DNA of 16,026 nucleotides from an uncultured archaeon (GCA_964480435.1 CAYZSS010000012.1:1-16026), one strand, 5' to 3'. Shown: positions 1 to 14,125, numbered from the stretch's first letter. Numbers and translations: made by a program. Notes: generated by a model not told the origin, from the letters alone.

Positions 1-3000
1 GCTGGCATTATTCTATTGGAATATTCTTCCTTAGTCATTTGGATTGATCCCAAAGCATTTGTTTTCCATTCTAGTTTTGCTTCTAAGCTATCCAACCCAA
101 TTGGATTCCCGTTAATAGTACAGCCATTAGTTATTACTAAAGTTTGCTTATCTTGTTTTGATTCAGTAGATACTAATTTTATTTGTATTAAATCAGCAGC
201 TAAACAAGATCTTTCATCAACATTTCCACCAAGCCCTAAAAACACATGCATAGGAACTTTCATCTCCCATTTTCCGCCCATAGCACTAAGTTTTATTACT
301 AATACTGCGTCATATTCTTCATTGCTTTGTATTCCCATTCCTGTTTGTGTTAATGTTACAGGGACTTCAATAGCTTGCGCTAATGATTTGTCAAATTCTT
401 TTCCTTTGTAAGCTGTTTCTAAAAAACTGTTTATTTGACTTAATGAAATTCTTTCTGCAAAGTTTCCTTGCACAAATACATCATCAATAGTTACTGACAC
501 ATCACTTGTATTTGTCATTATAATTTTTTCTTTTGCAAGCCCAATTTTTGCATCCACTTTCATGTCAATATTATCTTTATCAATAGTAACAAACTCTGAA
601 CTTGTTTTGTAACTCATTTCAAAAGATTTGTACTTTGGTTTGTAAATTAAAACTTTCAAAGTTACGTTTGGTTTTTGGGCAGGCATATCAATTATTGCTT
701 TTCCTTCATCATCTGTTTTGCCCATAAATAAAACTAATTCGGAATTGTCTTTTACATAAATTTTTGCATCTTTTATCAATTCCCCTGTTTCCTTATCTTT
801 TACCAATGCATCCATTTTTATAGGAATGTAAGATGGCAATACAGTTGGTTTTATTTCAACAGTAAGTTCTTTATTTGCATTAACATTTATCAAGAATTCT
901 TTTTGGTAGTATTGTTGTTTATCTTGTATTACTGTAAACTTAATACTTCCGCTACCAATTTTTCTTGGCTCGAAGTTTATTTCTCCCATTACCATGTCAT
1001 GCTTTGATAATTCCATATATTGGTCTTCAGCATAAATAATATTGTAATTATTTTCTGTTTGCAGAACAACACTATTTAATTCTGGTTTAATATCTCCTGA
1101 AACACCTTTTATTTTTGAAGTCAAGAAGAAAGTATTCTCTTGCTCATTACTAATAATTACTCTATAATTTGATAATGGTTTTATGTTGTTATTTATTAAT
1201 TTAAATTGCAATTTGTAAGTCTTTCCAATATCAGCAGTGTATGGAGTATCAGGAACTAAATCTTGTATAATTTCTTCATCCAAATCTTCCACATTTATTT
1301 CAAAACAAAATAAATCATCACAAGTTTGCTGAGTTGTTCCAACTGTAAAAAATGCATCCCTACTTTTTGCATAAAGCGGGCTAATTAAATCGCTCCAATT
1401 TTGTTCCAGAGGGTCTGTAAGAACATCGCTTTCGTTTTTATTATTAACATACATCTTAAAGTTTATTGGCAAATCTTCTCCAAACCTAACAATATCTTTT
1501 ACTTTCAATTGTACATCCACAAAAAATATTCCGGATTGTACATTCATTTCGCTAAGGTCCCATTTCATTCCAATCCATTTGAAAGTATCTTCAAAAGGCA
1601 GACCTTGTTCTATTTCATTACCAGTTACATTTATTCCTTCTATGTCGTGATTATATCCTTCTTCTCCATCTTTTGGGCTGTAACTTCTTCCTTTACTTAA
1701 AGTAGCTAAGCCACTATAGGTTACTTTTTCAATATGCCAACCATCTTTTTCAACAACATCCTTATCACCAGCTACAAAGTAAGCACCCATTGTTTTAAAT
1801 GGGCTACCATCAGCTTTAACAGGGACAGTAATTTTGAATTTTGCAACATAGTCATTTCCCGCACTCAAAACTGATGCTTGAGTTCCTTCCAAATTAGTTA
1901 ATTCAATAAATTCTATTTTTGGGTCCTGACTTAATTTCTTTTTTTCTATTACTACTTCTCTTTCTGTAGTAGTATCAGGTACTATATATTCTGCTGTTGA
2001 AATATAATTTTCATATCCTTCTTTTTCAACTGTAAAGTATAATTTTTTATCAGCTCTAAATTCAACTCCTTTTTGACCTGCTGCATCAGCAATTGTTTCT
2101 CCCAAAGGTAGAATCTCGTTCCAGGATGCGTCAAAATATTTAATTATAGGGAAAGGAACATAATTTCCAAATGTGTCTTTTACTGAAACACTTATAATCC
2201 CTTTTGGAATATACATTGAAACTGTATAATCAAAATTCACTAAAGTATCTGTATTATCAAAATATGTTTTATCTGAAAATCCTGAATAATTTAATTTGTA
2301 AGCAAATAATTTGTATTGCCCATCCGGAATATAATCCTCAAATTCCGCTATTCCATTTACATCAGAAATTGCAGGAGTATATGGAGCAATATTTTCTACT
2401 TCATCTTTTGTTTCATATATCATTACTTTAGCATTTGCCACTGGCTTTCCAAAAGAATCCAATACTTTTGCTTTCATTAATTTATAATCTGATGTTGATT
2501 TTGATAAAGTAATTTCTAAAACATCAGGTGTTGGTGGCATAAATAAAGTATATGATGCTGTGTTATACCCAGCTTTCTTTGCAGTATAATAGTAAGCTTT
2601 TGTACTTGATGGAATAGTATAACTTGTTAATCCATTATCATCTGTTGGATCACCACAACCAATTTTGTTATATATGCCTACATTCTTATCATAAAAACAA
2701 ACATCTACATCCTTCAATACTTGTTTTGAAACATTAAAAGCTCTAATTATTATATTTGCTCCATTATCGTATTTAGTTAAATTCACATTTGCTTGTTTTG
2801 TATCTGTTTCTCCTAAAGAAATTATAGTAGTTCCTGCAGAGTATCCTTCTTTTGTTACTGTTATAGTGTAAAATCCAGGAGCTAAATTAGAAAATACTAA
2901 TTGGTTTGTTTCTTCACTATAAGTAGTCCCTACCGGACCAAGATACTGACCAATTGCTAAATCTCCAACCACAGTAGTTAGGGGCAAATTAGAGCTATCA

Positions 3001-3743
3001 TAAACATTAATTATTATTCTACTATCCCCTGAATTTTGCAAAGGAGATAATAAAATTGAAGTACCGTCATTTACTTGCTCATCATCATGTTGAGTGTAAA
3101 ATTCAGACATTGTGCTTACCAATAGATATCCACAATCCCCATCTACATCTACATCCACATCATTACTTGTATAATTATTAATATTATCGGGTGCTGCTGC
3201 TCCTGAATTTGAGCAGGAAAAATAAATATCTACTGCTTTTAATGGGCTGTTATCAGTAGTGTAAAGAGAGAATGAAAGTTTTTTCTTGCTTAAATTTAAA
3301 GAATCTATTAATACAGTATAAGTTAGAGTATCATCTTCAAGCTTAAGACTTTTTAGGTAGGGTGTTCCCGCATAAGTTAAAGTAAAAAGAATTTCTTCTC
3401 CAGGTTTTCCTTTAAACTGAATTGCACCAAGCTCATCAGTTATAATACTTGTATCTTCACCAGCTAGAAAAAATGTTACCAATGAATTAGGGATAGGGGT
3501 TCCAATTTTATCAGCAAATGTTACTGATACCATTTCACTTGTTTGCAATCCTAAGCTCATTATTATTGCATAAATTACTGCAATTATTAATACTCCGAAA
3601 ATAAGTAAAAATAACACAAATGATGGAATCACTTTATCGATTGGATCAATAACAGAATATATCGGTATTCCTTTAGAATCCAATTTATCCAAAAAATTAT
3701 AGTATTTTTCTTCTAGTTTATAGTAAAAATCTCTCAAACCCAT
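1..3743 (-). CDS. Giant signal-anchored surface protein, paralog B. Only the N-terminal ~1247 codons are in the window; the C-terminus runs off the left edge.
   Basis: The minus frame is open from ATG 3743-3741 to position 3. I translated it codon by codon at both ends and at ~2400-2477. No minus-strand ORF is listed for 1..3743, as expected for an ORF with no stop in the window. The start is preceded by AGGGTGA plus 5 nt. N-terminus: MGLRDFYYKLEEKYYNFLDKLDSKGIPIYSVIDPIDKVIPSFVLFLLIFGVLIIAVIYAII, a conserved motif plus TM helix that closely matches the N-terminus of the neighbouring giant. It contains beta-sandwich-type repeats (e.g. MKAKVLDSFGKPVANAKVMIYETKD). The left-edge segment VIKLSAMGGKWEMKVPMHVFLGLGGNVDERSCLAADL...ITNGCTINGNPIG...LEWKTNALGS aligns with residues ~1110-1210 of the neighbour. 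Confidence 0.8.
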   Translation of the reverse strand, partial: MGLRDFYYKLEEKYYNFLDKLDSKGIPIYSVIDPIDKVIPSFVLFLLIFGVLIIAVIYAIIMSLGLQTSEMVSVTFADKIGTPIPNSLVTFFLAGEDTSIITDELGAIQFKGKPGEEILFTLTYAGTPYLKSLKLEDDTLTYTVLIDSLNLSKKKLSFSLYTTDNSPLKAVDIYFSCSNSGAAAPDNINNYTSNDVDVDVDGDCGYLLVSTMSEFYTQHDDEQVNDGTSILLSPLQNSGDSRIIINVYDSSNLPLTTVVGDLAIGQYLGPVGTTYSEETNQLVFSNLAPGFYTITVTKEGYSAGTTIISLGETDTKQANVNLTKYDNGANIIIRAFNVSKQVLKDVDVCFYDKNVGIYNKIGCGDPTDDNGLTSYTIPSSTKAYYYTAKKAGYNTASYTLFMPPTPDVLEITLSKSTSDYKLMKAKVLDSFGKPVANAKVMIYETKDEVENIAPYTPAISDVNGIAEFEDYIPDGQYKLFAYKLNYSGFSDKTYFDNTDTLVNFDYTVSMYIPKGIISVSVKDTFGNYVPFPIIKYFDASWNEILPLGETIADAAGQKGVEFRADKKLYFTVEKEGYENYISTAEYIVPDTTTEREVVIEKKKLSQDPKIEFIELTNLEGTQASVLSAGNDYVAKFKITVPVKADGSPFKTMGAYFVAGDKDVVEKDGWHIEKVTYSGLATLSKGRSYSPKDGEEGYNHDIEGINVTGNEIEQGLPFEDTFKWIGMKWDLSEMNVQSGIFFVDVQLKVKDIVRFGEDLPINFKMYVNNKNESDVLTDPLEQNWSDLISPLYAKSRDAFFTVGTTQQTCDDLFCFEINVEDLDEEIIQDLVPDTPYTADIGKTYKLQFKLINNNIKPLSNYRVIISNEQENTFFLTSKIKGVSGDIKPELNSVVLQTENNYNIIYAEDQYMELSKHDMVMGEINFEPRKIGSGSIKFTVIQDKQQYYQKEFLINVNANKELTVEIKPTVLPSYIPIKMDALVKDKETGELIKDAKIYVKDNSELVLFMGKTDDEGKAIIDMPAQKPNVTLKVLIYKPKYKSFEMSYKTSSEFVTIDKDNIDMKVDAKIGLAKEKIIMTNTSDVSVTIDDVFVQGNFAERISLSQINSFLETAYKGKEFDKSLAQAIEVPVTLTQTGMGIQSNEEYDAVLVIKLSAMGGKWEMKVPMHVFLGLGGNVDERSCLAADLIQIKLVSTESKQDKQTLVITNGCTINGNPIGLDSLEAKLEWKTNALGSIQMTKEEYSNRIMP

Positions 3744-3755
3744 ATTATTCACCCT
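3739..3755 (-). repeat. Copy 1 of an exact 17-nt direct repeat (minus strand AGGGTGAATAATATGGG = SD + spacer + ATG + GG), at the start of paralog B
   Basis: The plus-strand string cccatattattcaccct occurs at 3739-3755 and again at 3804-3820. The flanking bases differ on both sides. Confidence 0.9.
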
Positions 3756-3766
3756 TATATTGGGGC

Positions 3767-3808
3767 CTATTTTGATTTCCCTTTTTCGGAAATCACAAAC
3801 TTGCCCAT
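3767..3808 (-). CDS. Candidate 13-codon mini-ORF (MGKFVISEKGKSK*) between the two giant genes
   Basis: ATG at 3808-3806 sits in copy 2 of the SD+ATG cassette. The stop is TAG at 3769-3767. A 7-bp stem-loop (gatttcc/ggaaatc, 3774-3794) lies inside it. Coding status is unproven. Confidence 0.2.
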   Translation of the reverse strand: MGKFVISEKGKSK

Positions 3809-3820
3809 ATTATTCACCCT
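3804..3820 (-). repeat. Copy 2 of the 17-nt SD+ATG cassette, at the start of the mini-ORF
   Basis: 17/17 identical to 3739-3755 and 65 nt away from it. Confidence 0.9.
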
Positions 3821-3854
3821 AATAAAAAATAAAAATACACGCTTATTTGCGTGT
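3821..3854 (-). terminator. Hairpin plus oligo-T terminator-like element downstream of the 2406-aa gene
   Basis: The minus strand reads ACACGC-AAATAA-GCGTGT (3854..3837), then ATTTTTATTTTTTATT (3836..3821). It lies 22 nt after the stop at 3877-3879. Oligo-T tracts are the known archaeal termination signal. Confidence 0.5.
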
Positions 3855-3876
3855 TACTAAAAACGTAATTGGAACT

Positions 3877-6800
3877 TTAGTTAGTTCCCATTGCCCAAGT
3901 ATCATTTGCCCAAATCTTTATTGAGCTTTCTGTACTTGATATACAGTATTTGCTTACGCTTCTGCTTGTATCTTTAAATGCATCCAATATTCCCACATAT
4001 CCTAAATCCAGATAAGCAGGCATAGCATTCTTAATTAAATCTCCTGAGTAATCCCCAGTACTAAGTTTGTATTTCAAGATATTTCTTGTTGCTGTGCTTA
4101 TACCTTCCCAAGATTTTTTAGTTGAGCTGTACATTACACTTGTAAACTCTCCTGATGCTTCTCCGCTTTTTACCATTATTGATGGAGTAACAATTGAGCC
4201 CTTAGGAACCCAGGATATTTCCAAGTTTCCAGTAGATTCTTGTATTGCTATCCCTTTAACTTTGGATAAATCGCTTGTAAGCAATGGAAGGTAGAATATA
4301 CCTTGATTGTTATAAACTTTATCTGCTGTTAATTCAAATACAGTCCCTCTAAATAATCTTGTTAAATCGTTTGTCACAACAGAGTATTTATTAGTAGTTG
4401 TAGTACCAGCAGTTAAAGCTTGTATTGTCATCTTCTCTCCTGTTGGAAGCCCAGTACCAATAAAGTTTATTGTTCTTCCTTTTTGTACAGGATATTCAAA
4501 AGGGAAATTATACAACTTCTCTGTTTTTTCTGTGCCTGCTATTAAAATTGGAACAAATACATAATTACCATCTGTTGCTTTTTCAATTTGAATATAATAT
4601 GTTCCTGCCTTAGATACTGATAAACCTGATTTTAGTTTTACAATTTTTCCAAGAGCAGAGTCTATTGTATATGTTGCAGGTACAGAACTTAATCCGCCAT
4701 AATATTCAGCACTATAGTTTCCAGGCATTAGGTTTGCTCTAAATTGTGCATTTCTCAGCATATCTGCAGTTAAATCACCTACTCCACTTCCGCCTGCTGC
4801 TTTTAATGCAACAATTAATCTTTCTATTTCCAAAGCAGTGAATGGGTCATTTGCATAGAACACCATTACAGTTTGACCTAAAGCAATTGCCTTTGCAAGC
4901 TCTTTTTTCTTAGAGTCCCAAGTTGTTGATAGAATATCTGTCATCTTTAGGTAACAGTTACTACCAACTTTCAACATATTAGGATTTGTTGCTGCTTGTT
5001 CAGTAGCAAAAGCACAATTTGCTGCCCCATCTAATCTTACATAGAACCTGTCTTTATCTGGGTGTTCTCCTGTTGCACAAGCACCTTCTGCACTAGAGAA
5101 ATAACAACTATTCATGCTATCTAATGCTGTTTTTGCTTTGCTTAAATCATAACTTCCGTTCTTCATTAATTCCATAGCAGTTTTCAATGCGCTTATTTCA
5201 GAGTCATATCCACCTAAATAGCCAATATATTCTAATAATCTATTTTCATTTAATTTTACTTGTGCAGTAGTCAATTTATTATTTTCAAGCTTTGCTTTTA
5301 TTGCCTCTGACAAAGTATTTTGTGATCCAAATAAAGTACCTAAGCCTCCGCTTTTTCTTACCAAAGCCACTGTGAATTGATATTGATCACAGAAATATCC
5401 GCTTCCGTTGTATGGGTCTTCTTTTGTGTCACAAAATCCTGAAACAAGGTCTTTTGTTTCCCAAGTATATTTTATATCAGGATATGCGCTGTTATCTAAA
5501 TAAATTCCTTTATTTCCATATAGAGAATTACATTCAGTTGTAGAACCTGCTGTTCCTGCTCCAGTCCCAGTCCCGTCTCCACCTTTTCCTTCTCCTTCTT
5601 TCTTAATTTGTTCATTAGTTTTTACGCTGCTGCTTTGTTCTACGTTGTCATCACCAAATACAGTTGCGTTAATAGTAAAGTTATATACTTTTGTTTTGTT
5701 GTACCCTTTCTTTACTACCTCTCCCTGGAATTCAACTTTAACAGGGTGTGATCCTTTTTTCAAAGCTTCAGGCTTAGTAAATGTTATTGTCAAAGTTTGA
5801 CCATTTGTTCCAGGTATCACTTTTACTTTAATTACAGCGTCATTGTCTACTTTTTGTTCGAACTCTAAATTTCCGTAATATCTTACTTCATCTAAAGAAC
5901 CAAAACAATTTACACTAATAGTTAATATTTCTACTTCTCCGGATTGTGGATAAACAAATACATTATTCACAAACATATCGTTCTTAATTGTTATAGGAAC
6001 ATTAATTGTAATTTGATTATCTCCTGTTGATAATGGAATATAACTTTTCCATTTATCAGGTCCACAAGTAGGGTCTCCTTCAAGATATCTTCCGGAAAGT
6101 TTACTTGCCAATCCTAGCCAATTAGCTTTATCCTGAACATATACCAAGATTGAAGTTGATTTTGGGTTATATGATAAATTATATTTAAATGTCAGTAGAG
6201 CTGGCATTTTTACAAGGGTCTGTGTTTGACCTGCAACTACTCTTAGAGCACTTAATTGATCAATATCTCCACTTACTGAATCTGGTGTTTCAGGTATTTC
6301 TTGTCCTGCTTTCAAAATATCTAAATTCTTAGTAAATAACACCATAAATTGTTCAGCCATTACTCCATCAATAGTATCTGCCTGAGGAGATTCAACAACT
6401 GTTGCTGTTGCATAATAAGTTCCTTGTGCTTGCCCTGTTATTTCATCAACAGCTTCTAAATTATGATATGCTACTGGCTCTGCTTTATCCATTGTTAAGC
6501 CTCTTGCATAACATTTATTCCACATTTTTACTTGTTTTATTGCTCCACTAGTAATTCCAGCACCAGTAAAGTCAATTGTTTTTCCACCTTCAAATACAAA
6601 ACAATCATTGCTGATTTCGTTAGCAAAATCTCTTACAATTACAGGGATTTGAGCTATTGTAGTCATTAAACCCCTGTTTACACCCGCAGAAACATAAACA
6701 GCATATTGACCCACCATTGATGTTGCAGTAATATTAAAGGATTGTGTTTGACCAGCATTCAAAGTAAATGATGGGTTATCCAACCATAATTGAGACATAG

Positions 6801-9800
6801 CCTGCAATGATATTTCTGCAGGGAATTCACAAGTATTTCTAATTTGTAATTGTGCTACTGATGGCAATGAACCATTATTATAATTCAACCCTAAAGTAGA
6901 TTGCCCACCTTGTGCAAGTAATAATTGTTGTTGTAATAATGTTGAATTAGTACCTTGAGTTTGCATTGCCAGATTAGGATTTAGAGCAAGCAAAGCTGAG
7001 TTTTGAGCAGCTACAGCCCCAGGAGTATTATTTAATCCTGAGCCAACCGCATTAAGATATCCTGAACTAGATATATTGCTATTATTATTATTTTGTAAAA
7101 GCCCACTACCTAAAACACTACTCATACCAGAACCAAGCCCAGTCATTCCCATTCCACCATATTGGTTTACTCCCAATGTTACAACAGGAACACCGTTAAC
7201 TTGCGTTCCGCTGCCTTGTGATGAAACCACTTGCAAACATTTAGTTAGTATAGATACTACTACTTGTGCTTGTGCTTCTGCTTGGATATCTTGCAATCCA
7301 CTATCAGTAGGGTTCACAGCTTTCAGTCTTAAAGTTACTCCTGATTTACCACTTACTAAGTCACCAAGAGAAATAAAATCAATCGATGTTTCTGTTAATC
7401 CAGATCCTAAACTATTAGCATATGTTCCATCTTCTGAATATATTGCTATTGATTTTTTACTTAGTTTCTTGGAATCAAGGAAAAAGTCTCCAAGAACAGT
7501 TCCTTTCCAAACAAGTTCAACTGTTGGATTATATAAATAAACATCGTTTCCGTTTACTGTACAAGAGTTATCTATTTCAAAAGACATGGATGTTTTTTCT
7601 TTATCTCCTGAAACTAAAATTTGCCATAATTCATCCTCTGTTTCAGTTATAGGAGTTAATCTTAAACAATCTGTAGAATCTAATCCACCAGCTAATTTAA
7701 TGTATACTTTTACTGGCAACTCCATTTTCCATTTGTAATCTAAACCAGCCACTGCTAATTCTATTATCATTTTTGATTCAAATTCTTTCGGCTCTAATAA
7801 ATTCTTTCCCTCAGTTAAAGAAACTTTGTATTCTAAATCCATACTACTTGTTTCTCCAGTTAGGAACATATTCACATAATTTTTCTTAAATTCAAACTTA
7901 ACAAAATCCTTGTATTCTCCTTCTGTTAAATAGATATTTGTAATTTTCAATTTCAAAGGAGTTAAATTAGTTACATTAAATGACCCTTCAACATAATCTT
8001 TTATGGATCTATCAATTGTAAAATTTAATTCAGGTACATCAGTTAACAAAATATTTTCTGAAACTATAACCTCTTTTTCTAGTTTCTTATATCCACTTGC
8101 CATTACCTGTAGCATTACTTTTGTTCCTAAACTTAAAGCAGGAACTTTGAATAATGCAAAACCTGAATAATCTGTCCTTAATGATGTCATTAATTTATCA
8201 TCAATATATACATTTACCAAAGCATCAACTATTGCCTCATTAGCATCTAAATCCATAACCTTTAAGCTCAAGTCATTTTCTAAGTATGGTACTATCATAC
8301 CTGGAACTAAATCAGCAAACAATTCTTCTGATTCAGATACATCTACAGTTAATGATCTTTCATAAACCAGAGTACCATCATCCCCAACTATGGAGATTTT
8401 TATTATATTCAGTCCTTCTTTCATTACTGAAAATTCTAAACTTGAAGTTAAACTAAAAGCAGAATTTACATTTATACCAAGGGCCTTTACTTGTCCAGCT
8501 GTGTTTCCTGCTGAAATGGCTTTTCCACCCAAAACCATATTTTTAACTTTAAAGTCAATTCCTTTGTTTGGGCTTTCTATAATCAAAGTTGCATTATTAT
8601 ATTCTTTTGGAGATATACTTAGCATAGATATATCTATATTATATATTCCATTTAATTTTGCAAAGAAAGTATCTACTATTTTTTGTTTTACTCCATCCCC
8701 AGTTACAACAATATCTGAACATATTGCTCCAGAGCAAACCTTATTTCCTAAACTAAGCGGTATTTTATTAGTTTTTGCGTATAATCCATCTTTATCAGCA
8801 CTACCACTAGTACCTAATTCTGAATCAAAAGGTTCTCTCAAATAAGTTGAGCCTTTCTTTAACCAAACTCTATAATTCAAAGATAATAAACTTTTTTCTG
8901 CAGTCACAGATCCAAAAGATACTTTTACTAAATAATTTCCAGGTGCTACTTTTGTTGTACTTGACATACCCCAAAGTCCCTCATTCGCTGACAAGTTTTG
9001 CATGTCATTTGCTGTGCCATTTGGAGGAGTATATGTTGTTCCTAATTTTGAAGTACCATTAAAAAATTCTACAGACTTAATATACATCTGGGACTTTTCC
9101 AAAATTAAAGCATCATCTGCTTTAAAGAAAACACCCATTTCATCATAAGCCAATCCTTCTGGAACCCTAAATATAAAATATCCGGTATATTCTTCCCCCA
9201 TTACTATTGGCTTAGGATTTGACTCAATTGAATTTCCTTGAGAGTCATAAACGGCAACTAAATCTAAACCTAAATTTGTTGCTTTATCATAGATATAAGC
9301 AGTTACTTCTTTTGTAGAATCTGCAATTGCTTGTATTGGAAGACTTACAAACACAGAGTCATCTTTTGTTACTTTAAGATAAACTACCTTGTCCGCTCTT
9401 AAAGTATAATATACAGACCCAGTTTCATCAGTATACAAAGCACTTGAATTCTCTTTTGCATCAGTAAAAACATTATATACATTCACTTCTGCTCCCTGAA
9501 CCGGAAGAAAATCTTTGTTTATTGTTTTTATCATTAAATCTCCACTACCAATATTTAATTTTACTGCAATTTTATTTTCTATTTTTCCACTTAAAATAAT
9601 TGGTTGAGAATCTGAAGAAAAACTTCCTTTTACTACTTTTACATAGTAGCTTTTTCCTGCACTTAAATTATTAAAACTTACTCCCCCCGCAAGGTCAGTA
9701 GTTTTTGTTGTTAATAAACTGTCTTTTTCAACATTGAATAATTGCACAGAAGCATTATACACAGGCTCATTATCTGTTCCTGAAACCATTACAGATAATT

Positions 9801-11097
9801 CAGGGCTTTGCTTTATTGGTTTTAAAGTAACAGAATAAGCACTTTCAGAAGGAATCAAATTATCCATTTCTTCTAACATATAATTTTCTGCATCTATTAC
9901 AAATCTATAAATATATGCCGCATCTCCAACTGGGTATTCATAATATCCCACGCTTTTCAGTTGTCCTGCTGCCTCTTCAATATTATTTTTATAAACTTTG
10001 ATTACAGCTTGTTCAATTGGATTTCCCAAAGTATCTTTAATATTTACTTTTATTAGACCTACTGTTTTTTTACTCAACTGCACAGTTGCTGAAATGGTTT
10101 CATCTATCCCCACAGAAGTAGTAAAACCATTTTCTTGTACGTAAGGAGTATATGTGTTTTCTGAAGCATACACACCTTCAAGATCAGTTACAATAAGATA
10201 ATATTCAATATTTGCAGGTACTTCTAACTCTACAACTCCAGATGCTTGAGTTATTCCTGATGTTGCTGAAGAGTCATATTCAGTATCCATTGCTTTTACT
10301 GTTGCATTTGCTTTTGGGTTTCCATCAATATCTAATACTGTTACTACTATCTTTCCAAATCCCTCTGATTTTTCAGAAACAAATAAGTATGGAGCTACAT
10401 CATCCAAAGAGAAAGATTCTGAAGCATAATCCGGTGATGACAGAATAACAACCAAATTACCACAATCAGTAGCAATATTATCCACTGTTGCTTGTCCATC
10501 AGTAGTACTAATATTTGCGAAAAAACTTCCATTTTCTGTACAAGTAGCAGTACCATTTATTTGACCGCTAAAAAAAGTTTGCTTTGTTGCATCTGAACTA
10601 TCATAAAAAAATACTGTCTTGGATATAAGTCCGCCAACATAATTTAAATCAATAATTTCTTGTTGCCCATTTTCTTTAATGGTCACGGTATCTTCTAAAA
10701 GGTTATAATTTGGATCTAAAATGGATAAAGGTATTACACTCCCCACATCCCCAACAAAAGAAAGTTTTCCACTATCGTCTGTTTTTATTGTAAGAGTGCT
10801 ATCAGCAAGAATAAGATCTACACTCAAGCCACTAACCAGCATATTCCTAGTGGTATCCTTAAATGTTAAGCTTACTGTTGCCTGGGCCGGAGCAAAGCCC
10901 GCAGTTAAAGCATATATTCCTACTGCAATTAATGCAAGTATTATTAAACAAAAAACTAAAAAAACAGGAAAACCCGCTACTCCTTTATTATGAAGCCAGT
11001 CATCAACTTTGTATAAGGCGATTCCTTTTGAATCTAGCCAATCCAAAAAATTGTAATATTTTTCTTCCAAATTATAGTATATATCTTTCAGACCCAT
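3877..11097 (-). CDS. Giant signal-anchored surface protein, paralog A (~2406 aa), with multiple prealbumin/CarboxypepD_reg-like beta-sandwich repeats
   Basis: Single uninterrupted ORF. The track start at 11106 is a GTG. The ATG at 11097 gives MGLKDIYYNLEEKYYNFLDWLDSKGI, which aligns with the paralog start, and is preceded by GTGAT plus 4 nt. TM helix: FPVFLVFCLIILALIAVGIYALTAGF. Recurrent strand-D-x-x-G-x-P-x-x-x-A-x-V modules: VVTVLDIDGNPKANATVKAM, IKVNIKDTLGNPIEQAVIKVYK, VMVSGTDNEPVYNASVQLFN, MIKTINKDFLPVQGAEVNVYN, LKVMDLDANEAIVDALVNVYI. There is no C-terminal TM or sorting signal. The repeat family is assigned by pattern only. Confidence 0.85.
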   Translation of the reverse strand: MGLKDIYYNLEEKYYNFLDWLDSKGIALYKVDDWLHNKGVAGFPVFLVFCLIILALIAVGIYALTAGFAPAQATVSLTFKDTTRNMLVSGLSVDLILADSTLTIKTDDSGKLSFVGDVGSVIPLSILDPNYNLLEDTVTIKENGQQEIIDLNYVGGLISKTVFFYDSSDATKQTFFSGQINGTATCTENGSFFANISTTDGQATVDNIATDCGNLVVILSSPDYASESFSLDDVAPYLFVSEKSEGFGKIVVTVLDIDGNPKANATVKAMDTEYDSSATSGITQASGVVELEVPANIEYYLIVTDLEGVYASENTYTPYVQENGFTTSVGIDETISATVQLSKKTVGLIKVNIKDTLGNPIEQAVIKVYKNNIEEAAGQLKSVGYYEYPVGDAAYIYRFVIDAENYMLEEMDNLIPSESAYSVTLKPIKQSPELSVMVSGTDNEPVYNASVQLFNVEKDSLLTTKTTDLAGGVSFNNLSAGKSYYVKVVKGSFSSDSQPIILSGKIENKIAVKLNIGSGDLMIKTINKDFLPVQGAEVNVYNVFTDAKENSSALYTDETGSVYYTLRADKVVYLKVTKDDSVFVSLPIQAIADSTKEVTAYIYDKATNLGLDLVAVYDSQGNSIESNPKPIVMGEEYTGYFIFRVPEGLAYDEMGVFFKADDALILEKSQMYIKSVEFFNGTSKLGTTYTPPNGTANDMQNLSANEGLWGMSSTTKVAPGNYLVKVSFGSVTAEKSLLSLNYRVWLKKGSTYLREPFDSELGTSGSADKDGLYAKTNKIPLSLGNKVCSGAICSDIVVTGDGVKQKIVDTFFAKLNGIYNIDISMLSISPKEYNNATLIIESPNKGIDFKVKNMVLGGKAISAGNTAGQVKALGINVNSAFSLTSSLEFSVMKEGLNIIKISIVGDDGTLVYERSLTVDVSESEELFADLVPGMIVPYLENDLSLKVMDLDANEAIVDALVNVYIDDKLMTSLRTDYSGFALFKVPALSLGTKVMLQVMASGYKKLEKEVIVSENILLTDVPELNFTIDRSIKDYVEGSFNVTNLTPLKLKITNIYLTEGEYKDFVKFEFKKNYVNMFLTGETSSMDLEYKVSLTEGKNLLEPKEFESKMIIELAVAGLDYKWKMELPVKVYIKLAGGLDSTDCLRLTPITETEDELWQILVSGDKEKTSMSFEIDNSCTVNGNDVYLYNPTVELVWKGTVLGDFFLDSKKLSKKSIAIYSEDGTYANSLGSGLTETSIDFISLGDLVSGKSGVTLRLKAVNPTDSGLQDIQAEAQAQVVVSILTKCLQVVSSQGSGTQVNGVPVVTLGVNQYGGMGMTGLGSGMSSVLGSGLLQNNNNSNISSSGYLNAVGSGLNNTPGAVAAQNSALLALNPNLAMQTQGTNSTLLQQQLLLAQGGQSTLGLNYNNGSLPSVAQLQIRNTCEFPAEISLQAMSQLWLDNPSFTLNAGQTQSFNITATSMVGQYAVYVSAGVNRGLMTTIAQIPVIVRDFANEISNDCFVFEGGKTIDFTGAGITSGAIKQVKMWNKCYARGLTMDKAEPVAYHNLEAVDEITGQAQGTYYATATVVESPQADTIDGVMAEQFMVLFTKNLDILKAGQEIPETPDSVSGDIDQLSALRVVAGQTQTLVKMPALLTFKYNLSYNPKSTSILVYVQDKANWLGLASKLSGRYLEGDPTCGPDKWKSYIPLSTGDNQITINVPITIKNDMFVNNVFVYPQSGEVEILTISVNCFGSLDEVRYYGNLEFEQKVDNDAVIKVKVIPGTNGQTLTITFTKPEALKKGSHPVKVEFQGEVVKKGYNKTKVYNFTINATVFGDDNVEQSSSVKTNEQIKKEGEGKGGDGTGTGAGTAGSTTECNSLYGNKGIYLDNSAYPDIKYTWETKDLVSGFCDTKEDPYNGSGYFCDQYQFTVALVRKSGGLGTLFGSQNTLSEAIKAKLENNKLTTAQVKLNENRLLEYIGYLGGYDSEISALKTAMELMKNGSYDLSKAKTALDSMNSCYFSSAEGACATGEHPDKDRFYVRLDGAANCAFATEQAATNPNMLKVGSNCYLKMTDILSTTWDSKKKELAKAIALGQTVMVFYANDPFTALEIERLIVALKAAGGSGVGDLTADMLRNAQFRANLMPGNYSAEYYGGLSSVPATYTIDSALGKIVKLKSGLSVSKAGTYYIQIEKATDGNYVFVPILIAGTEKTEKLYNFPFEYPVQKGRTINFIGTGLPTGEKMTIQALTAGTTTTNKYSVVTNDLTRLFRGTVFELTADKVYNNQGIFYLPLLTSDLSKVKGIAIQESTGNLEISWVPKGSIVTPSIMVKSGEASGEFTSVMYSSTKKSWEGISTATRNILKYKLSTGDYSGDLIKNAMPAYLDLGYVGILDAFKDTSRSVSKYCISSTESSIKIWANDTWAMGTN

Positions 11098-11120
11098 ATC
11101 AATCACACAAATATATTTTA

Positions 11121-11143
11121 TATGTTGTTAAATACACAACATA
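11121..11143 (-). promoter_or_regulatory. Perfect 8-bp stem / 7-nt loop hairpin just upstream of the SD of the giant gene
   Basis: tatgttgt (11121-11128) and acaacata (11136-11143) are exact reverse complements. The hairpin lies 15 nt upstream of the GTGAT SD. An oligo-T run (minus strand, 11171..11166) and a TATA-like TAATATATATAAATATT (11160..11144) lie further upstream. Confidence 0.3.
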
Positions 11144-11219
11144 AATATTTATATATATTAACCTTAAAAAAGATATGTTATTTTTTACTTAGTTTTTCTA
11201 TTTTTTCTATTAGTTTTAA

Positions 11220-12671
11220 CTATGACACAAGAGTTAAAGTACCCGATGTAGGAGATACTGTTTCATAAACACAATTTTTTGTGGTTGCTCCAGTAAGCGG
11301 ATTAAAAGGTATTGCTGATTTTCCTCTTGCATATTCTCTATTATCAAGCTCAACACTAAAATTGTATTCTATTGCATTTCCAAAAGTAAATATAGAGCTT
11401 TCATCCTTTATTTTGAAAGAAATCACAATATTATCCAAATAATTACAGGGGACCTCAACCAAAGAAAAGTCAGTTGCAGAAATAGTTTTATAAAATTCAG
11501 CCTCTCCAAAATTCAAAGTAAATTCAAAATCATCATCAACAAAAGAAACATCAGTTAAACCTTTATGATATGCAATATTATTAAATTTATCTTCAAGCAC
11601 AGTCTGCATTGCGGACTTAATATTTTCCCTAGATAAGGAAGTTGGATTTGAGTTGGATTTATTAAAAGTAAATTTCGTGTTGATTCCAGGTAAAGAAACA
11701 CCTATATCACAATCAGTTTCCCCTAATTGCCCAGTATAACATTTAATATCATTTGAGTTAGTCCAGCACTCTGACTTACAATCCCCTACATACAAATCTC
11801 TAAATTTAGAATTTATAAATTCCTTGGCTTCAAAATCTTTTATTGTTTCCAGGAATGATGAGATTGCCCCAAAAATCCTAAGAGGCACATAAATAGTTGT
11901 TTTATTTCTTGGCAAAATTGCATCATCAACACTTGCCTGATCAATATATCTGTAAATCATAATACGCAAAATTTTCTCATATTCCCCAACATCACTTAAG
12001 TTAGATAAATCAATAGGAATGTAAAAAGAGCCATTTTTACAACTATTAGGGGTAACCCCGGATCCAGACTTATCACAATCAACCAATTCTAACAACCTGG
12101 CGCCACCCTCTGTAGAATTCTGAATTGCTTTGTGCACAGTATCAGTAGTAGTACTTGATTGCAAATTAGGAATAGTGTCTAAATTATACAGGTCAACCAC
12201 ATTAGACCCAACCATCTGCGTTGGGTCATAAATAAAAAATCTATATGCTATTTTGTAATCCCCGGAAAAATGTTCCATTTGAGTAATATATACATTTGTA
12301 AAAAAGTTTGCCACCGGCGAGCTTTCATTTGTTCCAATAAATTTAACTTTTTCAAAAGTTTGGGTTTGATCCGACCAAGATTTGTTAATATCCAAAATAT
12401 ATAAGTTATCGGTACTATCAGTAGCATCAAAATACTCTGCCATTTTTTTAACCAGAACAAGACTAACAAAACTGTAGCTATCTAATCTCAGAATATCTTT
12501 TAGAGTGTTAAGCTCCGTTTGCGACTGCACAGTAGTAAATATTTTACTATAATTTGCTTCACTATTATCAAGATGTTGCATAACCAGCACAGTAATGCCA
12601 ATCACAATAAAGCCAACAAGAGCGGTAAAAAGAGTAAAACCCCTTTTTCCCCTCAAATTAAAATTTAGCAT
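11220..12671 (-). CDS. Secreted 483-aa protein with a class III (type IV pilin/archaellin-like) signal peptide
   Basis: The N-terminus MLNFNLRGKRG|FTLFTALVGFIVIGITVLVM has a basic n-region, Gly at -1 and a hydrophobic stretch, which fits the prepilin-peptidase substrate pattern. It lacks the bacterial Glu+5. The remainder is Cys-containing and rich in N-x-S/T sequons, as expected for an extracellular protein. I recognise no other domain. Confidence 0.6.
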   Translation of the reverse strand: MLNFNLRGKRGFTLFTALVGFIVIGITVLVMQHLDNSEANYSKIFTTVQSQTELNTLKDILRLDSYSFVSLVLVKKMAEYFDATDSTDNLYILDINKSWSDQTQTFEKVKFIGTNESSPVANFFTNVYITQMEHFSGDYKIAYRFFIYDPTQMVGSNVVDLYNLDTIPNLQSSTTTDTVHKAIQNSTEGGARLLELVDCDKSGSGVTPNSCKNGSFYIPIDLSNLSDVGEYEKILRIMIYRYIDQASVDDAILPRNKTTIYVPLRIFGAISSFLETIKDFEAKEFINSKFRDLYVGDCKSECWTNSNDIKCYTGQLGETDCDIGVSLPGINTKFTFNKSNSNPTSLSRENIKSAMQTVLEDKFNNIAYHKGLTDVSFVDDDFEFTLNFGEAEFYKTISATDFSLVEVPCNYLDNIVISFKIKDESSIFTFGNAIEYNFSVELDNREYARGKSAIPFNPLTGATTKNCVYETVSPTSGTLTLVS

Positions 12672-12692
12672 TATTATGTAACTGGATTAATG

Positions 12693-12700
12693 TTTATAAA
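12693..12700 (-). promoter_or_regulatory. TATA-box candidate for the pilin-like gene (leaderless geometry)
   Basis: The minus strand reads TTTATAAA, with 21 nt between the box and the ATG at 12671 (centre about -26). There is no SD motif in between. Confidence 0.45.
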
Positions 12701-12832: not shown

Positions 12833-12906
12833 GGTCGTGTAGCTCAGCCCGGTTGAGCAGTGGTCTTATACGCCAAAGGTCGCAGGTTCAAATCCTGCCT
12901 CGACCA
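12833..12906 (+). tRNA. tRNA-Ile, anticodon UAU (74 nt, no intron, no encoded CCA)
   Basis: Manual cloverleaf: acceptor GGTCGTG/CTCGACC (one U6-U67 mismatch), D arm GCTC-AGCCCGGTT-GAGC, anticodon arm GTGGT-CTTATAC-GCCAA (27-43 G-A mismatch, 31-39 U-G), variable AGGTC, T arm GCAGG-TTCAAAT-CCTGC, discriminator A. The anticodon TAT is at 12867-12869, with U33 and A37. Confidence 0.75.
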
Positions 12907-13069: not shown

Positions 13070-14125
13070 ATGCAAGATCTTAATGAGTTTATTTTGTCTA
13101 ATAAGTGGCTTAGCAAAGTAAGAGGTAACAACAAAGCACTAGCTTTTTCTTTAAGATATCTTGGGGAATTAAAATACCTGCCAAAATATTACAAAAAGCC
13201 AATAGACATAATACTTATACCACAAAACAAAAAATTAATCAAACAAGTTCTTACAAAAACAGAAACAGAATTTCACAATATCACTTTAGATTTTTTTACT
13301 AGCCACTATTTTGAAAATTTAATAATTAAAGACCAAGCACTACTTAAAGAACTAGATAATATAAAAATAAATAAAACTAATTTTGATAACATTTCAGAAA
13401 AATTTATGTTACATGAATCAAACGCAATGCAAATTGTTTCTTTTGGAATAGTTGCAAACAAAAATTCACAACTAATAAATAGCGTGGATGTTCAAATTAC
13501 ATTGAAAGCACATGATTCTTGGAGAAATTCAATTTTTGTTTATGAAGAGAGATTTTTTAAACAGCTGCAAAAATATTTGGATTCTGAATTTGGTACAGGA
13601 AAAAACATCATTAAATTTATTACCCTTCCTGAGTTAAAACAAAAAACAAAAACAGAACTTAAAAAAATTATTTCTGAAAGACAAAAATCAAATTGTATTT
13701 ATTATGGCATAAATAAAGAATTTGGTACTATTACAAATAAGGTCCAAATTAAAAAAATTACAGCCTATTTATCAATAAAAGATATTAGTAAAGAAATTAA
13801 AGGAAATACAACCTATCTTTCTAAATCAATAGAAGGAGAAGCAATAGTTATAAAAACCCATAAAGATCTAAAAAAAATAACCCCTGAAAAATTAAAAAAT
13901 AAAATATTAATTACACATCAAACCTGCCCTCATTTTATTCCTTATCTAAAAAATGTAATTGGAATAGTCACTGATGAGGGGGGAATAACCTGCCACGCAG
14001 CAATATTATCAAGAGAGTTAAAGATCCCTTGCATAATTGGAACACAAAACGCAACAAAAAAAATAAAAACAGGACAAAAAATAAAAATGGATTTAGACAA
14101 AGGAGAAATAGTTATTTTAAATTAA
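13070..14125 (+). CDS. Protein with a PEP-utilizing-enzyme mobile (phosphohistidine swivel) domain and an uncharacterised ~250-aa N-terminal region
   Basis: The C-terminus ILITHQTCPHFIPYLKNVIGIVTDEGGITCHAAILSRELKIPCIIGTQNATKKIKTGQKIKMDLDKGEIVIL matches the PPDK/PEP synthase/Enzyme I swivel-domain signature GG-x-T-S/C-H-AA-I-x-x-R-E-L-x-IP, with the phospho-accepting His retained. I recognise no ATP-grasp or PEP/pyruvate-binding domain. Confidence 0.75.
   Translation: MQDLNEFILSNKWLSKVRGNNKALAFSLRYLGELKYLPKYYKKPIDIILIPQNKKLIKQVLTKTETEFHNITLDFFTSHYFENLIIKDQALLKELDNIKINKTNFDNISEKFMLHESNAMQIVSFGIVANKNSQLINSVDVQITLKAHDSWRNSIFVYEERFFKQLQKYLDSEFGTGKNIIKFITLPELKQKTKTELKKIISERQKSNCIYYGINKEFGTITNKVQIKKITAYLSIKDISKEIKGNTTYLSKSIEGEAIVIKTHKDLKKITPEKLKNKILITHQTCPHFIPYLKNVIGIVTDEGGITCHAAILSRELKIPCIIGTQNATKKIKTGQKIKMDLDKGEIVILN

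What the first reader, a model, noticed from the sequence alone, without database searches (positions are those of the whole stretch)
1..12700. Pilin-like gene followed by two tandem paralogous giant signal-anchored proteins: candidate cell-surface attachment or envelope module
Three co-oriented minus-strand genes fill about 80% of the window. The first encodes a 483-aa protein with a class III signal peptide and has a leaderless-type promoter. The next two are giant paralogs (2406 aa, and more than 1247 aa), and both start sites carry SD motifs, as internal operon genes do.

Both giants have N-in/C-out signal-anchor topology and long arrays of beta-sandwich repeats. I could recognise no catalytic motif in either.

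In a small-genome, probably episymbiotic archaeon, spending more than 11 kb on two such proteins next to a pilin-like subunit suggests a dedicated surface structure: a host-attachment fibre, a tether or an S-layer-like coat. I do not recognise this gene combination as a described system. The function is an inference.
Basis: partly seen in the sequence, partly recalled or inferred. Interest (0 to 1): 0.75.

Follow-up and report, generated by a model that had tools for sequence, protein, structure and literature searches.

The report
Iainarchaeota pilin-like plus giant surface proteins
Three real neighbouring genes of a tiny uncultured archaeon (a pilin-like protein and two huge membrane-anchored surface proteins) are a cut-down copy of an apparently undescribed gene cluster conserved across the phylum Iainarchaeota, probably a cell-surface fibre or contact apparatus whose function is unproven.

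Summary
Three co-oriented minus-strand genes (483 aa, 2406 aa, more than 1247 aa) fill 77% of the window. The first has an invariant class-III-type N-terminus (RG|FTLFTAL). The two giants are collinear paralogs with one N-terminal membrane anchor.

The nearest relatives are Candidatus Iainarchaeum (Diapherotrites, DPANN) genomes. A co-oriented giant lies upstream in 63 of 69 assessable loci and downstream in 61 of 65.

The common locus is larger than the triad. It has an archaeosortase-family protein, giant 1, the pilin-like protein, giant 2, a small four-helix membrane protein and giant 3. The one locus read further upstream also has a divergent type-IV-filament ATPase and a platform-like gene. 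The window is a reduced form shared by four related genomes.

All giants share a new 43-aa N-terminal motif (304 clusters at 50% identity, always at residue 1). Some giant 1 proteins end in peptidoglycan-cleaving domains. The window's giants have no recognisable enzyme domain, and modelling of the giant's C-terminal part failed.

Best reading: a membrane-anchored giant-fibre surface apparatus linked to a type-IV-filament system. Attachment to bacteria, an envelope coat and other roles remain open. I found no published description.

The parts
11220..12671 (-). Gene A: 483-aa protein with a class-III-type (type IV pilin-like) N-terminus. Founding member here of family F1.
   Evidence: ORF and translation. 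15 homologs with invariant FTLFTA, Cys199/Cys211 and a YVPLRxF motif. 80 genome loci. AF2 model pLDDT 70.4 with a long N-terminal helix, aa 12-82. No Pfam, PDB or fold match.
12564..12671 (-). Class-III-type signal region of gene A (aa 1-36): leader MLNFNLRGKRG, putative cleavage after Gly11, hydrophobic helix FTLFTALVGFIVIGITVLVMQ.
   Evidence: Sequence. Hydrophobic segment aa 10-36. Motif conserved across the family.
12693..12700 (-). TATA-like box TTTATAAA about 26 nt upstream of the gene A ATG. Candidate promoter of a leaderless mRNA.
   Evidence: Read. Inference only.
11125..11170 (-). Conserved A-B intergenic block (core GTTAATATATATAAATATTTATGT, 11139-11162), preceded by a T-run. Candidate promoter or operator of giant gene B.
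   Evidence: Nearly invariant in 4 genomes. Unique in the window, 0 expected by chance. Restricted to this subclade's loci.
3877..11097 (-). Gene B: 2406-aa giant, by position and similarity the 'giant 2' type. N-terminal motif, one membrane anchor, large extracellular part.
10900..11097 (-). Gene B aa 1-66: conserved N-terminal motif (MGLKDIYYNLEEKYYNFLDWLDSKGI..., aa 1-43) plus the single transmembrane segment (aa ~44-66).
   Evidence: Hits 142 ORFs in 75 loci. 304 clusters at 50% identity in 1.84 billion proteins, always at residue ~1 of the target; full-length targets 2000-3050 aa. Consensus.
9304..10884 (-). Gene B aa 72-598: five prealbumin/CarboxypepD_reg-like ~80-aa domains. A sixth lies at aa 940-1020 (nt 8038-8280).
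   Evidence: Pfam CarboxypepD_reg 2.6e-13, bMG3 3.7e-10. Iterated domain HMM.
6898..7230 (-). Gene B aa ~1290-1400: Q/N/G/S/L-rich low-complexity linker.
   Evidence: Sequence. Found only in the ortholog. Lowest ortholog identity, 41%.
3880..5532 (-). Gene B aa 1856-2406: C-terminal Cys-containing module with the family motifs C...YGFD/FCDxxQF and, at the end, ...C.........W.N.
   Evidence: Alignment of 34 giant 2 C-termini. No Pfam or PDB match. AF2 failed, pLDDT 36. Ortholog identity 42-53%, against 60-83% in the proximal half.
3739..3824 (-). B-C spacer with a 21-nt direct repeat (3739-3759 and 3804-3824, 20/21 identical) that duplicates the SD and start of gene C. The upstream copy opens a 13-codon ORF.
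   Evidence: Absent from the relative L087, which has a hairpin plus T-run there instead.
1..3743 (-). Gene C: first 1247 aa of a second giant ('giant 3' type), truncated by the window edge. The ortholog is 2603 aa.
   Evidence: 58% identical over 705 aligned residues to the ortholog L001/L087; the full ortholog, L087:17813-25621, ends with the same VC...WWNP motif as giant 2 proteins. Six collinear prealbumin-like domains. Pfam CarboxypepD_reg 7.1e-16, Big_1 7.3e-10.

Best explanation
The three genes are a lineage-specific reduced form of a cell-surface locus conserved across Iainarchaeota.

Genes B and C encode very long extracellular proteins. Each is held in the archaeon's own membrane by one N-terminal transmembrane helix, preceded by a family-specific 43-aa N-terminal segment that is presumably cytoplasmic. 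From the membrane outwards, each has a stalk of prealbumin-like domains, then a conserved non-repetitive middle, then a faster-evolving Cys-containing distal module.

Gene A encodes a large protein with a class-III (type IV pilin-type) N-terminus. It is presumably processed by a prepilin peptidase and handled by a type-IV-filament ATPase and platform. These are encoded beside the full locus in one related genome that I could read that far upstream, and an ATPase gene also lies at the flank edge in five others. Gene A would work with the giants as a minor or tip-like subunit or membrane partner, not as a bulk fibre subunit.

The apparatus projects giant fibres from the cell for contact with surfaces or other cells. 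In the full locus, some copies of the third giant carry peptidoglycan-cleaving tips, which points to bacterial cell walls as one target.

Shown: the gene structures, the family memberships, the synteny and the domain layout. Inferred: the topology, signal processing, any physical association between A and the giants, and the contact function.
For: - Gene structure and N-termini.
- The gene A family occurs in 80 (capped) species genomes, nearly all labelled Iainarchaeum, Diapherotrites or 'archaeon'.
- Co-oriented giants flank it in 63/69 loci upstream and 61/65 downstream.
- The exact triad occurs in the nearest relative. F1 followed directly by the start of a giant occurs on two more short subclade contigs.
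- The common locus contains an exosortase/archaeosortase-family protein (TIGR04178, 31 bits against a cut-off of 23; seen in 19 loci).
- The P0022 locus (L088) shows a divergent T2SSE-type ATPase and a weak T2SSF platform-like gene upstream. FlaI/TadA-like ATPase genes lie at the flank edge of 5 loci.
- The giants' N-terminal motif is family-specific and strictly N-terminal: 304 clusters, with full-length targets of 2000-3050 aa.
- B and C have a fixed collinear architecture.
- The distal half evolves faster than the proximal half between orthologs: 42-53% against 60-83% identity.
- Giant 1 C-termini carry SLT (1.3e-13, 2.1e-11) or glucosaminidase (1.8e-8) domains in 4 of 53 genomes.
- Large SLT-bearing extracellular proteins have been proposed as bacterial-wall attachment proteins in other DPANN (PMC8204110; PMC9723730).
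- No relatives were found on viral contigs or in phage protein families.
Against: - There is no direct functional evidence of any kind.
- B and C contain no recognised adhesin, lectin or enzyme domain, and the model of B's C-terminal part failed.
- Gene A matches no pilin model or solved fold. It is much larger than a major pilin and lacks Glu5.
- The window and its nearest relative lack the archaeosortase gene, giant 1 and ATPase within 10 kb. A link to that machinery is therefore unproven for this genome.
- Muralytic tips are confirmed in only 4 of 53 giant 1 proteins and in none of the window-type giants.
- The highly conserved, collinear architecture with a fixed gene order across a phylum looks more like a housekeeping structure than a typical fast-shuffling host adhesin.
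- Synteny breaks in one clade.
Confidence: 0.5

Rival explanations
1. The giants are the main cell-envelope (S-layer-like coat or spacer) proteins of Iainarchaeota. In this reading the paralogs are anchored by their N-terminal helix and form the wall that defines the pseudo-periplasm. The class-III protein and the archaeosortase-family enzyme would be envelope-biogenesis partners.
For: - Near-universal presence, fixed order and collinear architecture across the phylum, as expected of a housekeeping structure.
- A conserved, strong-looking AT-rich promoter block sits upstream of gene B.
- In Haloferax an archaeosortase processes the S-layer glycoprotein (established knowledge; PMC7157517 listed).
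- The proteins are built of Ig-like or prealbumin-like domains, like several archaeal S-layer proteins (own knowledge).
Against: - No S-layer family matched.
- There is no C-terminal anchor or PGF-CTERM-type sorting signal on any giant.
- N-glycosylation sequons are not enriched: 28 observed against about 25 expected.
- Muralytic tips on giant 1 make little sense for a passive coat in a peptidoglycan-free archaeon.
- Three giants of 2400-2900 aa each would be unusually large lattice subunits.
Confidence: 0.25
2. The locus is a pseudopilus-type secretion or extension device. Gene A polymerises into a short pseudopilus on a type-IV-filament ATPase and platform. This pushes out or releases the giants, which are its cargo. 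The archaeosortase-family protein clips them from their N-terminal anchor.
For: - The class-III N-terminus is conserved.
- An ATPase and platform-like gene lie beside the full locus in L088.
- An archaeosortase-family gene sits directly upstream of giant 1 in 19 loci.
- The conserved N-terminal motif on every giant could be a recognition signal.
Against: - Known exosortases and archaeosortases act on C-terminal signals, and the giants have none.
- No secretion substrate of an archaeal type-IV-filament system of this kind is known (own knowledge).
- The window's subclade keeps A, B and C without the sortase or ATPase nearby.
Confidence: 0.1
3. The giants are nutrient-scavenging or antagonistic exoproteins, displaying murein or polymer degradation and binding on the surface, rather than attachment organelles. 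Gene A is an unrelated surface protein that merely shares regulation.
For: - SLT and glucosaminidase tips occur on some giant 1 proteins.
- Archaeal peptidoglycan hydrolases that kill bacteria have been reported (PMC12352652, title and abstract).
- Iainarchaeota may be free-living (PMC6349945).
Against: - B and C have no hydrolase domain.
- The tight A-giant linkage across the phylum argues for a shared structure.
Confidence: 0.1
4. The adjacency is coincidental: three unrelated large ORFs, or over-called ORFs in AT-rich DNA.
For: GC is low, about 31%, which favours long spurious ORFs in principle.
Against: - Orthologs are 46-60% identical with conserved order.
- Hundreds of family members exist.
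- Pfam domains score above their cut-offs.
- Synteny holds in more than 90% of assessable loci.
Confidence: 0.02

Closest known systems
Large extracellular murein lytic-transglycosylase-domain proteins of Woesearchaeota and Pacearchaeota (fam00969; Castelle et al. 2021, PMC8204110; also PMC9723730)
   Same: These are DPANN proteins of up to about 3000 aa, predicted extracellular, and proposed to bind or degrade bacterial walls. Giant 1 of the full Iainarchaeota locus carries SLT or glucosaminidase domains in some genomes.
   Different: The window's giants B and C have no SLT or other hydrolase domain. I did not test the published family for the N-terminal motif, the pilin-like partner or the multi-giant locus. 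Whether fam00969 is homologous to this family was also not tested.
Archaeal type IV filament (TFF) systems and class-III-signal-peptide proteins (pilins, archaellins, bindosome proteins; PMC6098224; bioRxiv 10.64898/2026.04.22.720090)
   Same: Gene A has a basic leader, Gly at -1 and a hydrophobic helix. A FlaI/TadA-like ATPase and a T2SSF-like gene lie beside the full locus.
   Different: Gene A is 483 aa, has Thr rather than Glu at +5 and hits no pilin model. No ATPase, platform or peptidase gene is in the window. I found no described archaeal TFF system that includes N-anchored giants.
Archaeosortase (ArtA) with PGF-CTERM S-layer glycoprotein
   Same: In the full locus a small exosortase/archaeosortase-family membrane protein is encoded next to a giant surface protein.
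   Different: The giants have no C-terminal tripartite sorting signal. The sortase-like protein is only about 185 aa. It is absent from the window.
SPEARE and other giant proteins of Nanohaloarchaeota, and giant genes of Omnitrophota predators (PMC6642349; bioRxiv 10.1101/2023.11.21.568195)
   Same: These are very large surface proteins of ultra-small, host-dependent or predatory prokaryotes, thought to mediate cell contact and wall degradation.
   Different: I tested no homology with these proteins. By my own recollection, SPEARE proteins combine protease, adhesion and endonuclease domains, none of which is found here. The N-terminal motif and pilin-like partner seen here are specific to this family.

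Membership tests
Type IV pilin-like / class III signal peptide proteins | Short basic leader ending in Gly/Ala at -1, followed by about 20 hydrophobic residues | tested here: met
   RGKRG|FTLFTALVGFIVIGITVLVMQ. The motif is conserved family-wide.
Type IV pilin-like / class III signal peptide proteins | Match to pilin or pseudopilin sequence models (Pfam N_methyl, TIGR pilin families) or to solved pilins | tested here: not met
   No Pfam hit at E<=1. The best NCBIfam hit is GspG at E=0.2, 11.7 bits against a cut-off of 88.85. No PDB sequence hit, single or profile.
Type IV pilin-like / class III signal peptide proteins | Lollipop fold: a long N-terminal helix packed on a globular beta-rich domain | tested here: inconclusive
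Type IV pilin-like / class III signal peptide proteins | Genomic linkage to a TFF ATPase, platform protein and prepilin peptidase | tested here: inconclusive
   An ATPase plus a weak T2SSF-like gene lie beside the full locus in L088, and an ATPase gene sits at the flank edge of 5 loci. None is in the window or within 10 kb in the nearest relative. No peptidase gene was seen anywhere.
Type IV pilin-like / class III signal peptide proteins | Cleavage by a prepilin peptidase and assembly into a filament | not testable with these tools
   Needs biochemistry or imaging.
Archaeal S-layer proteins | Match to a known S-layer protein family or domain | tested here: not met
   B and C gave only generic prealbumin or Ig-like hits.
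Archaeal S-layer proteins | Lattice formation and very high abundance | not testable with these tools
   Needs cryo-ET or proteomics.
Archaeosortase/exosortase substrates | C-terminal tripartite signal: motif, transmembrane helix, basic tail | tested here: not met
   winB has no hydrophobic segment other than the N-terminal one. The C-termini of more than 90 giants are soluble.
DPANN large SLT-domain extracellular proteins | Lytic transglycosylase (SLT/GH23) domain | tested here: not met
   Absent from winB, winC and the full winC ortholog. Absent from 34 giant 2 C-termini. Present only in giant 1 of L042 and L068.
Bacterial alpha-2-macroglobulin-like proteins | MG-domain series plus a CxEQ thioester motif | tested here: not met
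   bMG3/MG4 hits are short and overlap the CarboxypepD_reg hits. There is no C.EQ motif in B, C or the C ortholog.
Iainarchaeota giant family (defined here) | N-terminal M..lk.fY..lEDKYY..lD.ld.kGIPVY motif plus a single TM, followed by collinear prealbumin-like domains; length 2000-3300 aa | tested here: met
   Both B and C meet these features.

The most novel reading that the evidence does not exclude
Iainarchaeota carry a previously undescribed surface organelle. A type-IV-filament motor, a large class-III-signal subunit and an archaeosortase-like enzyme assemble three paralogous giant proteins of about 2500 aa each. A new N-terminal targeting and anchor motif marks these giants. The result would be long fibres used to seize bacterial cells, with some lineages breaching peptidoglycan through muralytic tips. 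This would be a cross-domain attachment or predation apparatus. The window would be a minimal version of it: one subunit plus two fibres.
Probability: 0.25. Interest if true: 0.85.

Novelty: new variant of a known kind. Interest (0 to 1): 0.62.

Why it matters
Iainarchaeota have no cultured member, and whether they live freely or on hosts is unsettled. A locus that takes up roughly 2% of a 1 Mb genome is a concrete handle on that question, for three reasons:
- It is conserved across the phylum.
- It couples a pilin-type protein to membrane-anchored giants.
- In some lineages the giants end in peptidoglycan-cleaving domains.

The locus also supplies practical tools. The 43-aa N-terminal motif is a specific marker for finding these proteins in metagenomes. 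The proteins themselves are candidates for antibodies or cryo-ET assignment. The muralytic tips give a testable prediction: contact with bacteria rather than archaea.

The pairing of an archaeosortase-family enzyme with proteins that lack any C-terminal sorting signal is also unexplained. It could point to a new sortase substrate type.

Tried and rejected
Searches and models that led nowhere:
- The third homology search, with winB aa 1407-2406, returned nothing. It did not even find the 60%-identical ortholog, probably because low-complexity words swamped the candidate list.
- AF2 on that region with a 6-sequence alignment gave pLDDT 36, which is unusable.
- Profile searches against PDB sequences found nothing for the gene A family, the giant 2 C-terminal module or the common giant 1 tail.

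Ideas considered and dropped:
- By eye, the Cys-rich majority tail of giant 1 (PEALLVTVgIwKSglG...CAA.KL...YN) looked like a degenerate SLT domain. This was not supported: hhalign against an SLT-bearing tail gave probability 0.4%. I do not claim it.
- NlpC/P60-like motifs in four giant 1 tails were seen by eye only and had no Pfam hit.
- A viral or tailocin origin was rejected. No relatives were found on IMG/VR contigs and no PHROG hits.
- An alpha-2-macroglobulin reading was rejected because there is no thioester motif.
- A C-terminal sorting signal for the neighbouring archaeosortase was rejected.

Literature: searches for this gene combination found nothing specific. The original Iainarchaeum paper (Youssef 2015) is not in the held library, so I cannot rule out a mention there.

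Full report
WHAT IS IN THE WINDOW

Three minus-strand genes cover 12,416 of 16,026 nt, or 77%.
- Gene A (12671-11220) encodes 483 aa.
- Gene B (11097-3877) encodes 2406 aa, counted from the ATG that homologs also use.
- Gene C (3743-1) is cut by the window edge after 1247 aa.

GC is about 31% throughout. The only RNA gene is a tRNA-Ile(UAU) at 12833-12906, between gene A and a divergent gene with a PEP-utilizer domain.

GENE A

Gene A starts MLNFNLRGKRG|FTLFTALVGFIVIGITVLVMQ. This has the form of a class III (type IV pilin-type) signal: a short basic leader, Gly at -1, then a hydrophobic helix.

In an alignment of 15 homologs, F-T-L-F-T-A are invariant. So are two cysteines (199, 211) and a YVPLRxF motif. 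Across 86 family members the N-terminus is [KR][GA]F[TN]L[FY][TS]A.

The protein matches no Pfam or NCBIfam pilin model and no PDB sequence, either as a single sequence or as a profile. An AlphaFold model (pLDDT 70.4) shows a helix spanning aa 12-82 followed by an alpha/beta domain, but it has no Foldseek match in the PDB.

'Class-III-signal protein' is therefore supported by the motif. 'Pilin' in the sense of a fibre subunit is not shown, and at 483 aa it is far larger than a major pilin.

THE GIANTS

B and C each have one hydrophobic segment, at about aa 44-66, and no other. A 43-aa N-terminal segment precedes it and is the best-conserved part of the proteins: B and C are 41% identical over the first 127 aa.

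This segment is a family signature.
- Its consensus is M..lk.fY..lEDKYY..lD.ld.kGIPVYk.vD.iE.kgIPSFP.
- It hit 142 ORFs in 75 related loci.
- It hit 304 clusters at 50% identity among 1.84 billion proteins, always starting at residue ~1 of the target. Full-length targets are 2000-3050 aa.
- Named members are only 'hypothetical' or 'carboxypeptidase regulatory-like domain-containing' proteins. Their sources are Iainarchaeum or Diapherotrites, unclassified 'archaeon' MAGs, one MAG labelled Micrarchaeota, and two short fragments from a bin labelled as a bacterium.

An iterated domain model found six ~80-aa prealbumin (CarboxypepD_reg-like) domains at matching positions in B and C (Pfam support). 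Both proteins align collinearly with the same distant relatives over 1200-1900 residues. They are true full-length paralogs with a fixed architecture.

The recognisable repeats cover only about the first quarter of each protein. The middle (aa ~600-1290) is conserved in about 60 loci. A Q/N/G/S-rich linker (aa ~1290-1400) is lineage-specific.

The C-terminal module looked lineage-specific by single-sequence search. An alignment of 34 giant 2 C-termini then showed shared motifs: C...YGFD, FCDxxQF, PFDGxVG, and a terminal VC...LxWN. So it is divergent but homologous. Between orthologs it is 42-53% identical, against 60-83% for the proximal half.

No enzyme, adhesin or S-layer family matched B, C or the full 2603-aa ortholog of C. 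Structure prediction of B's C-terminal 1000 aa failed with pLDDT 36.

ORGANISM AND SYNTENY

The closest homologs come from Candidatus Iainarchaeum MAGs: 46% identity for A and 60% for B. In the nearest genome the order A, 2570-aa giant, 2603-aa giant is the same, followed by unrelated genes. Two further contigs of the subclade show A preceded by the same divergent PEP-utilizer gene and followed by the start of a giant.

Nearly all are labelled Iainarchaeum, Diapherotrites or 'archaeon'. A co-oriented giant of this family lies directly upstream of the gene A homolog in 63 of 69 assessable loci, and downstream in 61 of 65.

THE COMMON LOCUS

Clustering all ORFs in these loci gives this common layout, in order:
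1. A ~185-aa exosortase/archaeosortase-family protein (TIGR04178, 31 bits against a cut-off of 23). In some loci a LemA protein takes this place.
2. Giant 1, 2700-3300 aa.
3. The gene A family protein.
4. Giant 2, about 2500 aa.
5. Often a ~155-aa four-helix membrane protein.
6. Giant 3.

In the one locus where I could see further upstream (L088), a divergent operon encodes a T2SSE-type ATPase, a 766-aa protein with a weak T2SSF match, and a NosD/beta-helix protein. FlaI/TadA-like ATPase genes also sit at the flank edge of five other loci.

The window is thus a reduced form: A, then a giant 2 type (B), then a giant 3 type (C).

Synteny is not absolute. In the clade of P0005 the gene A homolog has no giant neighbours. 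A giant 34% identical to B (P0017) has no gene A homolog beside it.

CLUES TO FUNCTION FROM THE WIDER LOCUS

None of more than 90 giants has a C-terminal hydrophobic sorting signal. The neighbouring archaeosortase-family enzyme therefore has no obvious canonical substrate.

Giant 1 ends in an SLT lytic transglycosylase domain in L042 and L068, and in a glucosaminidase domain in two genomes. That is 4 of 53 tails scanned. An archaeon without peptidoglycan has no evident use for these domains on its own wall. This points to bacterial walls as a target, as already proposed for large SLT proteins of Woese- and Pacearchaeota (PMC8204110; PMC9723730).

The commonest giant 1 tail resembles SLT by eye, but that resemblance failed both tests I could run. 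No family member was found on viral contigs or in phage protein families.

TRANSCRIPTION SIGNALS

A TATA-like box about 26 nt upstream of the gene A ATG fits a leaderless mRNA. SD-like pentamers precede B and C.

The A-B spacer carries a T-run and then a ~45-nt AT-rich block. This block is almost invariant in four genomes whose proteins have diverged to 46-60% identity. It is unique in the window and restricted to this subclade. I read it as gene B's own promoter or operator, so co-transcription of all three genes is unproven.

The B-C spacer contains a 21-nt duplication of gene C's SD and start, which creates a 13-codon upstream ORF. The relative instead has a hairpin plus T-run there.

INTERPRETATION

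The best-supported reading (confidence about 0.5) is a cell-surface apparatus. Giant proteins anchored by their N-termini project from the cell. They work together with a class-III-signal protein that is handled by a type-IV-filament machine. The likely role is contact with surfaces or cells.

The main rival (about 0.25) is an S-layer-like envelope role. Phylum-wide conservation and the fixed architecture favour it. The muralytic tips and the lack of any S-layer family or C-terminal anchor argue against it.

A pseudopilus-type export device and a surface-displayed scavenging or antagonism role remain possible at about 0.1 each.

Several of its details need revision: it is not a self-contained triad, gene A is not shown to be a pilin, B and C are not shown to be operon-internal, and the lifestyle is not known to be episymbiotic (PMC6349945).

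NOVELTY

I found no description of this locus, of the giants' N-terminal motif or of the gene A family. I looked in Pfam, NCBIfam, PHROGs and PDB, and in the literature I could search.

The components are of known kinds: type-IV-filament parts, a sortase-family enzyme and Ig-like giant surface proteins. I therefore rate it a new variant of a known kind, with a 0.25 chance that it is a distinct new organelle for cross-domain contact.

Noticed in passing
window 12833-12906 (+): tRNA-Ile with anticodon UAU (TAT), lying between gene A and the divergent PEP-utilizer-domain gene. By my own recollection most archaea decode AUA with a modified CAU tRNA, so this may say something about the organism's decoding system.
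   Followed up: no
window 11125-11170 (-), core 11139-11162: A ~45-nt AT-rich block in the A-B spacer (TTTTTAAgGTTAATATATATAAATATTTATGTaGTcTATTTAACA) is nearly invariant in four genomes whose neighbouring proteins are only 46-60% identical. It is flanked by GTTAA...TTAAC. Probably a promoter or operator for giant gene B.
   Followed up: partly
window 3739-3759 and 3804-3824: A 21-nt direct repeat (20/21 identical) duplicates the SD and start codon of gene C. The upstream copy opens a 13-codon ORF (MGKFVISEKGKSK). It is absent from the nearest relative, which has a hairpin plus T-run there.
   Followed up: partly
window 6898-7230 (-), gene B aa ~1290-1400: A Q/N/G/S/L-rich low-complexity stretch interrupts the giant. 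It is found only in this lineage and is the least conserved segment between orthologs (41%).
   Followed up: no
window ~5370-5400 (-), gene B aa ~1903-1907; alignment A2: Invariant Cys, Asp and Gln in an FCDxxQF motif, plus further invariant Cys and Trp, across 34 giant 2 C-terminal modules. This is not the alpha-2-macroglobulin CxEQ thioester spacing. Its role is unknown.
   Followed up: no
L042:9447-9986, L068:7547-9946, L011:7567-9966 (giant 1 C-termini, not in the window): Giant 1 of the full locus ends in SLT lytic transglycosylase or glucosaminidase domains in 4 of 53 genomes. Four others show an NlpC/P60-like H..LYVGK motif by eye only.
   Followed up: partly
Giant 1 proteins, e.g. L024:7564-9963, L013:7542-9941: Two conserved hydrophobic stretches (...DCG[IV]P... 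and G[IL]xxG[LI]ANxAGxxAY) flank a ~450-aa helical region near the C-terminus of giant 1. By eye this recalls tape-measure or conjugation proteins with muralytic ends. Not tested.
   Followed up: no
L013:597-1157, L088:9200-9772 and 17 other loci: A ~185-aa exosortase/archaeosortase-family protein lies directly upstream of giant 1, although no protein in the locus has a C-terminal sorting signal. Its substrate is unexplained.
   Followed up: partly
L003, L004, L008, L009; P0017 locus: In one clade the gene A homolog sits beside a 331-577-aa hypothetical protein near Sec61-beta, with no giants nearby. A giant 34% identical to B has no gene A homolog beside it. The linkage has therefore been broken at least once.
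   Followed up: partly
window 13070-14125 (+): A 351-aa protein carries only the PEP-utilizing-enzyme mobile domain at its C-terminus (Pfam 6.5e-23). Relatives have a 105-aa stand-alone version at the same divergent position.
   Followed up: no
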